Assembly: GCF_006345805.1 (NCBI RefSeq)
Contig: NC_043009.1
Coordinates: forward strand, 61,070,001-61,134,000
Reading direction: 5' to 3'
DNA: 64,000 nt
From: Octopus sinensis
Lineage: Eukaryota
Shown here: positions 62,354-64,000 of the stretch, piece by piece
Layout: each line of letters begins with the position of its first letter
How positions within the stretch are numbered: position 1 is the stretch's first letter
Position numbers and translations under genes: made by a program
Notes under the pieces: generated by a model
Databases searched by the model: none
What the model was told of the DNA's origin: nothing
The model's input: only the letters and a program-made list of their open reading frames with translations

Positions 62354-63183
62354 CAGGGTGTGATAAATAGATTATCATCTAATTTCTGCAAAAATGAAAA
62401 TAACACTGACATTTCACTTTAACAGATATATTTACCAAAATTACATAAAAATATCTTGAAATACTAAAGAGTAAATTTATTCAATAAAATTGCCATTGGC
62501 TTCAACCACAGCCTCCAGACAACTTCAGAATCTCCTGCAACTCTTCTGGACGGTCTCTTTGTTTAAGTTGGTGAATGCTGCCATAATCCTTGCCTTCAGT
62601 TCATCTTTGGTGTTACAAGGAGTTTTGTTGGTCTCTTGCTCAACTGTGCCCCCACACATAATAACGAAGGGGGTTGCAGTTTGGGGAGTTAGGTAGCCAG
62701 ATGTTAAGGGTGATGAGGTTGCAGAAATTATCTGACAGCCATGACTGGGTTCTCTTGCTTGTGTGGCATAGTGCAGAGTCCTGTTGCCAGACATAGGGTC
62801 TTCCCACAGCCACCCTCTTGACCCAGGGTAGCACTACCTCCTCCAGGCACTCTGTGTTGAGTGTGAGGCCGTGTGGGAAGATAAATGGAGGCATAACGTT
62901 GCCATCACTAGTGATCACTCCAAACACCATGATGTTGACTGGATGTTTGATTTTTATTACTCTCGGTACATGTTCATACTGGAGCTTCTGGCATGAATGC
63001 CAAGCAGTACAGCATGTCAATTCCAAATTTCTGGCAGAGTGAATTGCATCATGGTGCTGTTTTTCTCGCAGACAGTGCCCAACTGACCCTACTATACTGT
63101 GTAGTCAACAAAATCAAAAACAAACAATACACATGTGCAAAATTAAAAATATAAAATAGCAACAATTTACCCATTGCATCCTG
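62354..63183 (-). mobile_element. Second copy of the same deleted Tc1/mariner family
   Basis: CAGGGTG...CCTG|TA ends. Same KHPVNIMVFGVITSDG and WQQDSA motifs, frameshifted. Confidence 0.9.
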
Positions 63184-63269
63184 TATGTGTGTGTGTGTGT
63201 GTATGTAGATAAGCTAGAGTTGTGTGTCTTTTCTAAGGGTCAACCTTTTAGCTAAACATATTGATAGAT

Positions 63270-63565
63270 TATTTACATTCGATGGATATTTGTCCTCATC
63301 TTGTTTGTTGTTAACATGTTTCGGCTGATATACCTTCCAGCCTTCTTCAGGTGTCTTGGGGAAATTTCGAACCTGGGTTCTCATTCCTAAGGTATTTTTC
63401 GAGAAGCCAGGTTTGAAATTTTCCCAAAACACCTGAAGAAGGCTGGAGGGTATATCAGCCGAAACGTTGTGTTAACAACAAACAAGAGGAGGACAAATAT
63501 CCGTCAAATGTAAACAATGTAAATAATGTACATAATTCCTCATCTCTTAAATATAGAACTGTATT
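63270..63565. mobile_element. PLE-derived inverted-repeat mini-element carrying a hammerhead on each arm
   Basis: About 100-bp inverted arms, an unpaired 3' tail of about 45 nt, and a flanking 12-bp direct repeat ATATTGA(T/C)AGAT at 63258-63269 and 63566-63577. Confidence 0.75.
63428..63473 (+). ncRNA. Minimal type-I hammerhead ribozyme fold
   Basis: AACAC-CTGAAGA-A-GGCTG-(10 nt)-CAGCC-GAAA-CG-TT-GTGTT. Stem I AACAC/GTGTT; palindromic ACGT stem III; triplet GUU. Confidence 0.75.
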
Positions 63566-63803
63566 ATATTGACAGATGTTTTTAAGAAATAGTCAACCGT
63601 AGAAAAGACATGATTTTTCTGTCATTTAATGAAAGTTTTCCTCTCAAAACCAGATTTGTCTTGTTTGAGTAAGAAAGGGTTAAGAGACTCAAACCTCAAC
63701 TGGGAACATAGAAAACCATGATGACTAATATATGTGCGTACTTTATTGAGTAATAAATTTAGTTCTTATCTACTAATTTCTTGATTGTTTCTCTCTCTTT
63801 CAG

Positions 63804-63969
63804 TTGATGGCTTAGATGTACGGGTGAGAGGCCTTAAGATCCAGTCTTCTAAAGAACGCACTCTTGGATTCGATCGAGATTTCTTCTGCGAGAGGAAGCT
63901 TTTCCGTTATCCTCGTCTTGAGGCTTATACCCCCGATGAGTTGTACTACAGATCTATAGCTTTGCAAAG
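63804..63969 (+). CDS. HECTD3: HECTD3 coding exon 7; gene continues beyond the window
   Basis: TTTCAG acceptor. Translates (V)DGLDVRVRGLKIQSSKERTLG...RYPRLEAYTPDELYYRSIALQR, matching DGIDVRLRGVKIKSS...RYPRLEG..PEVLYRRA.LLQR. Donor AG|GTAAGC, phase 1 to 2. Confidence 0.95.
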
Positions 63970-64000
63970 GTAAGCCTTTATTAACCCAGCCTATCTTGTT

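What the first reader, a model, noticed from the sequence alone, without database searches (positions are those of the whole stretch)
63258..63577. Double-hammerhead, TSD-bounded non-coding mini-retroelement in a HECTD3 intron
Seen: a roughly 300-bp insertion with a 12-bp TSD, two inverted arms and an unpaired tail. The + arm holds an intact minimal hammerhead (63428-63473, CUGAAGA...GAAA-CG-UU). The minus arm holds the same motif (about 63313-63355) with a damaged stem I/III. Established: Penelope-like elements carry minimal type-I hammerheads with palindromic stem III in their pseudo-LTRs and often insert as inverted structures with a tail. Inference: this is either a non-autonomous, retrozyme-like family mobilised by PLE machinery or a heavily 5'-truncated PLE. 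It lies about 240 nt upstream of the exon 7 acceptor, so the pre-mRNA contains both the ribozyme and its own antisense arm.
Basis: partly seen in the sequence, partly recalled or inferred. Interest (0 to 1): 0.8.

Follow-up and report, generated by a model that had tools for sequence, protein, structure and literature searches.

The report
Truncated copy of tRNA-headed Penelope retrotransposon
This hairpin in an octopus gene's intron is one of thousands of broken-off ends of a protein-coding Penelope-type jumping gene, not a new mini-element, but its family is unusual: it carries a tRNA-like piece that may act as its promoter, and a recurring 3-letter gap at the ribozyme's predicted cut site that may record cutting in living cells.

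Summary
The structure is real: two inverted arms, a tail, an 11-of-12 target duplication (empty site inferred in a related species) and an intact minimal hammerhead on the + arm. It is not an independent non-coding element. It is the doubly 5'-truncated end (pseudo-LTR) of a very abundant coding Penelope-like element (RT + GIY-YIG-type endonuclease), inserted in the textbook 'inverted copy + direct copy + tail' form. The + arm, hammerhead included, is the first ~50 codons of that element's ORF. In this intron the ribozyme is predicted to be fully base-paired and silent, and copies show no preferential conservation of its core. The family holds two things I did not find in print. (1) A tRNA-derived head with A/B boxes inside the pseudo-LTR: about 80% of arms that reach it end at its start (~10-fold hot spot), and the 2.7-kb sense strand has no shared TTTT, which suggests Pol III transcription and SINE-like spread. 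(2) A recurring 3-nt deletion exactly at the predicted cut in 9-13% of arms, including this copy's minus arm, a possible scar of cleavage in vivo. Both readings are inferred and untested.

The parts
63258..63269 (+). Left target-site duplication; its last 5 nt overlap the end of the inverted arm
   Evidence: family TSDs of 10-15 nt in 31 of 49 two-arm insertions
63265..63402 (-). Inverted, tail-less pseudo-LTR arm (body positions 3-142); stops just short of the (AAT)n tract, so it lacks the tRNA-like head
   Evidence: blastn of a natural copy on the window
63313..63355 (-). Damaged hammerhead: C3-A9, stem II and GAAA intact, but a 3-nt deletion at the cut site and a G>A change remove the cleavage triplet and shorten stem I
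   Evidence: a 3-nt deletion at this site in 33 of 258 arms
63401..63564 (+). Direct, tailed pseudo-LTR arm (body 23-185), cut at about the element's start codon
   Evidence: 94.5% to a natural copy
63420..63569 (+). Open frame equal to the N-terminal ~50 codons of the PLE ORF; the hammerhead lies inside it
   Evidence: the frame runs on into the RT N-terminus in L230, L235, L236, L238
63428..63473 (+). Minimal type I hammerhead: 5-bp stem I, CUGAAGA, unpaired A, 6-bp stem II, GAAA, palindromic ACGU in place of stem III; predicted cut after 63468
63507..63533 (+). Three 9-nt repeats; tail-less arms of the family end here; the number of units varies in steps of 9 (frame kept)
   Evidence: net indel 0, -9 or +9 in 72 of 74 arms
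63522..63565 (+). PLE 'tail': ~44-nt extension into the ORF present at one end only
   Evidence: a 30-40-bp tail is described in PMC8557442
63566..63577 (+). Right target-site duplication; a single-copy contig of related organism C aligns leftwards to exactly 63566, and the same depth reappears on the left flank (inferred empty site)
   Evidence: tables 2 and 8
63804..63971 (+). Downstream exon of the HECTD3-like host gene (aa 338-393); context, not part of the element

Best explanation
The feature is a dead, doubly 5'-truncated insertion of the pseudo-LTR of a high-copy coding Penelope-like retrotransposon, and its hammerhead is predicted to be silent here because the host pre-mRNA would fold it into a long hairpin. 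Shown: the family unit is tRNA-like head - (AAT)n - ATG - hammerhead inside the first codons - RT - endonuclease - short 3'UTR - head - (AAT)n - hammerhead - tail. Inferred: the element's RT/EN nicked the intron with a ~12-nt stagger and copied the RNA end from both nicks (or copied once and switched strand), one arm from the tail and one from the 9-nt repeats; both arms stopped early and were joined head to head. Inferred, about even odds: most family RNAs start at the tRNA-like head, which explains why most copies are ~300-nt head-to-tail units; this copy stopped before the head. Inferred, somewhat under even odds: in source RNAs the hammerhead cuts as a dimer at low efficiency, and RT that runs off the cut end re-anneals by a 2-nt match, leaving the 3-nt gap seen in this copy's minus arm.
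For: Copy number: 1,951 exact 35-nt core matches, 4,663 tail 25-mers, controls 0. ORF linkage: 30 of 30 ORF-end loci; RVT_1 E 1.3e-9; C-terminus 52% identical to intact PLE protein P0002; 29 of the 30 best loci for a PLE protein query are this family. The window frame matches P0002's N-terminus. Two arms in 49 of 86 and 49 of 90 sampled loci. TSD >=10 nt in 31 of 49 vs 0-4 shuffled and 29 of 61 vs 0-5. Empty site inferred in organism C. Hammerhead stem-pair probability 0.0 in the full context. Neutral decay of the core. Opposite-strand dual minimal hammerheads 100-700 bp apart are already attributed to truncated PLEs in PMC4209133; inverted copy + tail in PMC8557442.
Against: No intact ORF was found; the longest match without a stop is ~550 aa. 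Pfam GIY-YIG did not hit the family's own C-terminus and hit P0002 only at E 0.23. Samples come from contig C1 only and were picked by exact motifs, so they lean to young copies. Which arm is copied first is not resolved: arms agree at the free core position in 54 of 64 pairs (39 expected if independent), so neither 'one template' nor 'two templates' fits all. 5' ends do not pile up at the hammerhead cut (3 of 139 arms at 90-93).
Confidence: 0.93

Rival explanations
1. The short head-(AAT)n-hammerhead-tail units are a true SINE: solo pseudo-LTRs transcribed by Pol III from the tRNA-like A/B boxes and copied in trans by the PLE protein. The window copy is a truncated insertion of such a short RNA rather than of full-length PLE RNA. 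This fits the anatomy of the best explanation and differs only in the template.
For: 45 of 54 and 44 of 54 arms that reach the head start end within -20..+10 of it: 5.4 and 4.6% per nt against 0.3-0.6% per nt inside the head (+21..+56) and upstream. Only 3 of 30 head-picked loci continue into the ORF. Exact 25-mers: 2,444 in the head, 660 just upstream. The head is colinear with 15 of 15 of the genome's own tRNAs, A and B boxes in register (z 2.9-7.3). No TTTT in the unit.
Against: No diagnostic column separates head-start from ORF-linked arms (250 tested, lowest p 0.008, mostly CpG decay). Copies that start at the head and run into the ORF exist (L235, L236), so the head may simply be the PLE's own 5' end. 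An imperfect hairpin is centred on the head start (-12.5 kcal/mol, z -2.1) and could stop or fold back RT. 5' ends are also raised at +11..+20 (1.4-2.6% per nt). Rfam and default ARAGORN do not call the head a tRNA.
Confidence: 0.45
2. An independent, non-coding, retrozyme-like or foldback mini-element with fixed ends, whose unit is the whole ~300-bp hairpin.
For: A best-hit search returns about twenty insertions of similar size with both arms.
Against: That set is picked by likeness to the query; even there the centre differs in every copy. Motif-picked samples show all lengths. The body is coding sequence. One partial tandem in 86 loci (L157), no arrays.
Confidence: 0.03
3. A host-co-opted intronic ribozyme or dsRNA switch that regulates HECTD3 splicing or editing.
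For: The + hammerhead is intact, on the sense strand, ~230 nt before an acceptor; the hairpin would be a long dsRNA. Heavy A-to-I editing in octopus is recalled, not tested.
Against: The insertion appears absent in organism C. About half of sampled tailed arms keep the common sequence around the cut by chance of youth (100 of 258 exact), so intactness is not special. The antisense arm is transcribed first and pairs the core with probability ~1; the motif needs a dimer partner (PMC4209133).
Confidence: 0.04
4. The 3-nt deletion at the cut site is not a cleavage scar but slippage or repair after insertion at a CpG-bearing palindrome, or a variant carried by some source elements.
For: It is in frame, so a source element could carry it; 4 of 67 pairs have it in both arms (about 1.6 expected if independent); the site holds a hypermutable CpG.
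Against: 33 of 258 arms against 7 other 3-nt deletions in 110 nt; 10 of 106 against 3 in the tail-picked sample. Twelve other positions with the same 2-nt period-3 match, including a longer AAC repeat, are rarely hit. Same frequency on both core variants (7 of 62, 25 of 192). One arm only in 13 of 17 and 6 of 6 affected pairs. 19 of 45 deletion events of any size overlap the four bases at the cut (counted). About 10% of RNA reads of related organism B show a 3-nt gap at the same place.
Confidence: 0.5

Closest known systems
EN+ Penelope-like elements (Penelope/Poseidon type) with minimal hammerheads in pseudo-LTRs (PMC4209133; PMC8557442)
   Same: RT followed by a GIY-YIG-type C-terminus, ~2.7-kb unit, partial tandems, inverted 5'-truncated copy, one-sided tail, minimal type I hammerhead with palindromic stem III and an unpaired base before stem II; opposite-strand hammerhead pairs were already reported.
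   Different: The pseudo-LTR begins with a tRNA-derived A/B-box head and (AAT)n; 5' ends cluster there; the sense strand has no shared TTTT. D. virilis Penelope has a LINE-like TATA-less internal promoter (PMC2377424 passages). Clade not tested by a tree.
Schistosoma SM-alpha / Sj-alpha SINE-like hammerhead repeats (as reviewed in PMC6765202; primary paper not held)
   Same: Short repeat with a presumed Pol III promoter followed by a hammerhead.
   Different: Those are described as non-coding SINE-like repeats, often tandem; here head and hammerhead are part of a coding PLE, the hammerhead lies in the ORF and insertions are inverted pairs with a tail.
Non-LTR retrozymes (PMC7229834; bioRxiv 10.64898/2026.07.22.740005)
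   Same: Type I hammerhead, related to PLE pseudo-LTRs, 170-400-nt scale.
   Different: Retrozymes are head-to-tail tandems with a hammerhead in each unit and make circles; this is head-to-head, with one unit per arm.
TRIMp3 elements Helenus, Ajax, Cassandra (PMC10886601, abstract only)
   Same: A small-RNA-derived, presumed Pol III promoter inside the terminal repeat of a retroelement, possibly from a captured SINE.
   Different: Those are non-autonomous LTR elements with PBS/PPT and 4-5-bp TSDs; here it is a pseudo-LTR of a coding PLE with 10-15-bp TSDs.

Membership tests
EN+ Penelope-like element | Single ORF with RT | tested here: met
   RVT_1 E 1.3e-9 in L231; 112 longer homologues of the N-terminal part, most with RVT_1 on record
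EN+ Penelope-like element | C-terminal GIY-YIG endonuclease | tested here: inconclusive
   52% identical to the C-terminus of P0002; Pfam GIY-YIG passes cut-off in homologues P0073 and P0091, E 0.23 in P0002, no hit in L196; C-x-C, H, H residues seen by eye
EN+ Penelope-like element | Pseudo-LTRs from partial tandems | tested here: met
   Body sequence both before the ORF and after the 3'UTR in L193, L230, L232
EN+ Penelope-like element | Inverted 5'-truncated copy and one-sided 30-40-nt tail | tested here: met
   49 of 90 tail-picked loci are two-armed; tail-less arms end mostly at body 138-158 of 183
Penelope/Poseidon clade | RT phylogeny; no extra zinc finger in the RT-EN linker | not tested
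   No tree built; linker judged by eye only
Minimal type I hammerhead | Core nucleotides, stems I and II, palindromic 15.2-16.2 | tested here: met
   + arm. The minus arm fails (deletion at the cut)
Minimal type I hammerhead | Covariation or preferential core conservation among copies | tested here: not met
   Core 7.1% vs flank 8.8%, p 0.99, 86 arms; the only common non-CpG substitution in the ribozyme is at the free position 7 (56 T, 28 A), which is also a D/E codon change
Minimal type I hammerhead | Self-cleavage (as dimer) | not testable with these tools
   Active dimer fold computed at -21.5 vs -27.2 kcal/mol for the best dimer fold
Non-LTR retrozyme | Head-to-tail tandem with a hammerhead in each unit | tested here: not met
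   One partial tandem among 86 loci; the window copy is head-to-head
Non-LTR retrozyme | Non-coding; circular RNA | tested here: not met
   Body is ORF start; circles not testable
tRNA-derived SINE | tRNA-related head with A and B boxes | tested here: met
   Family only, not the window copy; not called by Rfam or default ARAGORN; isotype unassigned
tRNA-derived SINE | Defined 5' end at the head | tested here: met
tRNA-derived SINE | Lineage replicating apart from the autonomous partner | tested here: inconclusive
   No diagnostic columns; head-start arms are slightly less diverged (5.7% vs 7.2%) but the sets were picked differently
tRNA-derived SINE | Pol III transcription | not testable with these tools
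   Indirect only: no shared TTTT

The most novel reading that the evidence does not exclude
This octopus Penelope family is a protein-coding retrotransposon transcribed by RNA polymerase III from a captured tRNA-type promoter in its pseudo-LTR: the 2.7-kb sense strand has been kept free of TTTT terminators, its solo pseudo-LTRs spread as Penelope-driven SINEs, and its ORF-embedded hammerhead cuts in vivo, leaving a 3-nt scar in about one arm in ten of the genomic copies.
Probability: 0.25. Interest if true: 0.85.

Novelty: new variant of a known kind. Interest (0 to 1): 0.5.

Why it matters
The locus itself is ordinary: one of thousands of neutral PLE fragments. The family matters for three open points. 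How PLEs are transcribed and why they need tandems is known mainly from Drosophila Penelope; a tRNA-type internal promoter would be a different solution and would link PLEs to SINE origin. Whether minimal PLE hammerheads cut in vivo is stated as unshown in PMC4209133; a scar at the cut site can be counted in any genome and would make that testable without a bench. The hammerhead inside the first codons implies that cutting removes the start codon and so could separate translated from template RNA (inference).

Tried and rejected
Rfam: no hammerhead or tRNA hit at these sites, only unrelated or hairpin-type matches. A frame starting at an ATG in the tail was rejected: it came from a frameshift in L193; four other copies give the frame through the hammerhead. 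Pairs of hammerheads 2-6 kb apart (L073-L076) were not full elements; one was split by an unrelated element inserted in (AAT)n. Apparent 3' ends at ORF position ~418 are an artefact of a deletion in reference L193. Pile-up of 5' ends at the hammerhead cut: not seen. Diagnostic subfamily columns: none. Fold-back polarity at head-to-head junctions: only 3 usable cases, uninformative. Sequencing runs: no RNA holder listed. RNA reads of related organism B (3 runs, 1 study, 6% read) gave equal depth on both strands and no places where many molecules begin or end; the library may be unstranded and would miss short Pol III RNA, so this is no evidence either way. Control PLE families for the TTTT test: only one 858-nt locus found (7 observed, 6.5 expected). 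Earlier findings of the scan: none. Papers not held: PMC5785218, PMC5850863, PMC108972.

Full report
OBSERVATION. Window 63258-63577 holds two inverted arms (63265-63402 minus, 63401-63521 plus), a 44-nt tail and a 12-nt duplication with one mismatch. It folds at -184.5 kcal/mol, z -24. The + arm has a minimal type I hammerhead at 63428-63473 (C3 63433, G12 63461, predicted cut after 63468); alone it folds into stems I and II, and the motif occurs once in the window against 0.01 by chance. The minus copy has lost 3 nt at the cut and has a G>A change. The host exon at 63804-63971 is 100% identical to a protein named HECTD3-like of Octopus vulgaris by its source and is the 7th of 7 coding segments in the window.

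IT IS A HIGH-COPY REPEAT WITH VARIABLE 5' ENDS. The genome holds 1,951 exact matches to a 35-nt core motif and 4,663 to a tail 25-mer; reversed controls 0. With 6-7% divergence per copy the true number is likely above ten thousand (inference). I examined 86 of the first 100 listed core matches (left out: 6 held separately as L073, L075, L076, and the last 8) and 90 of the first 100 tail matches (left out: 6 duplicates or loci already held, and the last 4); all are on contig C1 and about 9 loci are in both sets. Two head-to-head arms occur in 49 of 86 and 49 of 90. The junction differs in every copy, even among the 21 best hits. Duplications of >=10 nt (at most one mismatch) flank 31 of 49 two-arm insertions against 0-4 in 50 shuffles, and 29 of 61 tailed insertions against 0-5. 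In related organism C a single-copy contig (depth 3.62) aligns from 63822 leftwards to exactly 63566, and depth 3.62 reappears on the left flank at 63220-63251.

IT IS THE END OF A CODING PENELOPE-LIKE ELEMENT. Upstream of the window's arms the family continues as (AAT)n, a ~75-nt head, a short 3'UTR and the end of an ORF. All 30 loci picked by the ORF end carry the head (28) and/or a same-strand body (27) right downstream. Long copies show body-ORF-3'UTR-head-(AAT)n-body-tail over ~2.7 kb. The ORF has RVT_1 and a C-terminus 52% identical to an intact 847-aa protein with the RT + GIY-YIG-type layout. In L230, L235, L236 and L238 the frame opens at or before an ATG just after (AAT)n and runs through the hammerhead and tail into the RT N-terminus. 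The window's + arm is open in that frame and matches the N-terminus of the intact protein (41% of 49 aa, E 5e-6), so the overlap of ribozyme and coding sequence is shared with a distant family. The 9-nt repeat changes by 0 or 9 nt in 72 of 74 arms. The inverted-copy-plus-tail form is described in PMC8557442 (passages), opposite-strand minimal hammerhead pairs 100-700 bp apart as probable truncated PLEs in PMC4209133 (parts 1-2 of 4 read), and a 34-bp repeat at the ORF start and 3' end in PMC2377424 (passages).

THE RIBOZYME AT THIS SITE. In the intron the antisense arm comes first; computed probabilities of stem I and II pairs are 0.0 and the core is paired at ~1.0. The motif also lacks a monomeric stem III and needs a partner; PMC4209133 found no monomer cleavage and low dimer cleavage for such motifs. 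Across 86 arms not picked by the hammerhead, the core is no better conserved than flanks (7.1% vs 8.8%, p 0.99); the only common non-CpG substitution is at free position 7. Copies decay neutrally; any selection acted on source elements.

FAMILY FEATURE 1: A tRNA-LIKE HEAD AS 5' BOUNDARY. The head aligns end to end with 15 of 15 distinct tRNAs of this genome (39-46 identities, z 2.9-7.3, A and B boxes in register), though Rfam and default ARAGORN do not call it. Of arms that reach its start, 45 of 54 and 44 of 54 end within -20..+10; that is 5.4 and 4.6% per nt against 0.56/0.43 inside the head (+21..+56) and 0.34/0.29 upstream, with 1.4/2.6 at +11..+20. Only 3 of 30 head-picked loci go on into the ORF; exact 25-mers drop from 2,444 to 660 across the boundary. 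L235 and L236 start at the head and run into the ORF. Predicting that a Pol III unit should lack TTTT, I counted: none in L193 (2,622 nt, 5.9 expected, P 0.003) or L230 (2,486 nt, 4.8 expected, P 0.007); 0 vs 3.2 under a synonymous-codon null in L230's ORF match (P 0.013); among 26 copies no TTTT site is shared by more than 3, while 13 TTT sites are shared by most (0.77^13 is about 0.03). The copies descend from like sources, so this is about one test, not 26. Three other retroelement stretches have 2-3 runs each against 2.5-5.3 expected, so mild depletion is common, and the one other-family PLE locus is not depleted. Against: no diagnostic column separates head-start from ORF-linked arms, and a hairpin centred on the head start could itself stop or fold back RT. 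How an uncapped RNA would be translated is open; PMC13725137 (passages) reports that self-cleavage can aid cap-independent initiation, but here the cut falls downstream of the ATG.

FAMILY FEATURE 2: A SCAR AT THE CUT. A 3-nt deletion at the predicted cut occurs in 33 of 258 arms against 7 other 3-nt deletions over 110 nt, and in 10 of 106 against 3 in the tail-picked set. It is equally common on both core variants, mostly in one arm of a pair (13 of 17; 6 of 6), and 19 of 45 deletions of any size overlap the four bases at the cut (counted). The product is what RT would make by running off the 3' cleavage product and re-annealing by 2 nt three bases upstream (inference). A source variant or repair at a CpG palindrome is not excluded (4 concordant pairs), and 5' ends do not pile up at the cut.

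ARM ORIGIN. Arms agree at position 7 in 54 of 64 pairs (39 if independent) and share 26 rare variants against 8.4 at random: mostly one source, sometimes two templates. Priming from both nicks is my preferred reading; fold-back is not excluded.

LITERATURE. Nine full-text searches listed no paper that, by title, abstract start or the passages I read, describes a tRNA-headed PLE pseudo-LTR, a Pol III-transcribed PLE, or a cut-site scar. Most listed papers were seen only as listings; Repbase/Dfam entries, subscription papers and supplements were not seen, so the family may already be catalogued. Also read: bioRxiv 10.64898/2026.07.22.740005 (parts 1-3 of 5), passages of PMC7229834, PMC6765202, PMC6962438, PMC10294476, abstract of PMC10886601.

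VERDICT. The locus is a known kind of thing, a truncated PLE insertion (0.93). The family is a new variant with two testable leads. Interest 0.5; 0.85 if the Pol III and scar readings hold (0.25 jointly).

Noticed in passing
L073 2988-5732 (-); also 3' ends in L061, L066, L069: A non-LTR element with a restriction-enzyme-like C-terminus (Dong/R4-like, label recalled) is repeatedly inserted in the (AAT)n tract of this family, splitting head from body.
   Followed up: partly
window 62643-63104 (-): A 154-codon stretch reading like a Tc1/mariner transposase fragment (label recalled) lies in the same intron; the 63060-63187 part is high-copy in four related species.
   Followed up: no
L031 8845-9275 and most 10-kb loci: A second, very abundant ~430-bp repeat, several copies per 10 kb; probably a SINE, not identified.
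   Followed up: no
L040 194-399; L034 3363-3571: More diverged (76-81%) hammerhead-bearing inverted pairs: older copies or a sister family, useful for a covariation test.
   Followed up: no
L388: A second PLE family, T-rich on the sense strand (35%), not alignable to this family at DNA level.
   Followed up: partly
P0016 and P0020: Other PLE proteins also show peptide traces like the translated hammerhead, near the N-terminal third in one and at the C-terminus in the other (by eye).
   Followed up: no
L193, L227-L229; L124, L125, L127, L128: Near-identical copies with shared flanks: segmental duplicates or unmerged haplotypes; counted once in the column and T-run tests.
   Followed up: partly
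L236, L316: Insertions whose arms run hundreds of bases past the usual tail into the ORF, so priming is not always at the tail.
   Followed up: no
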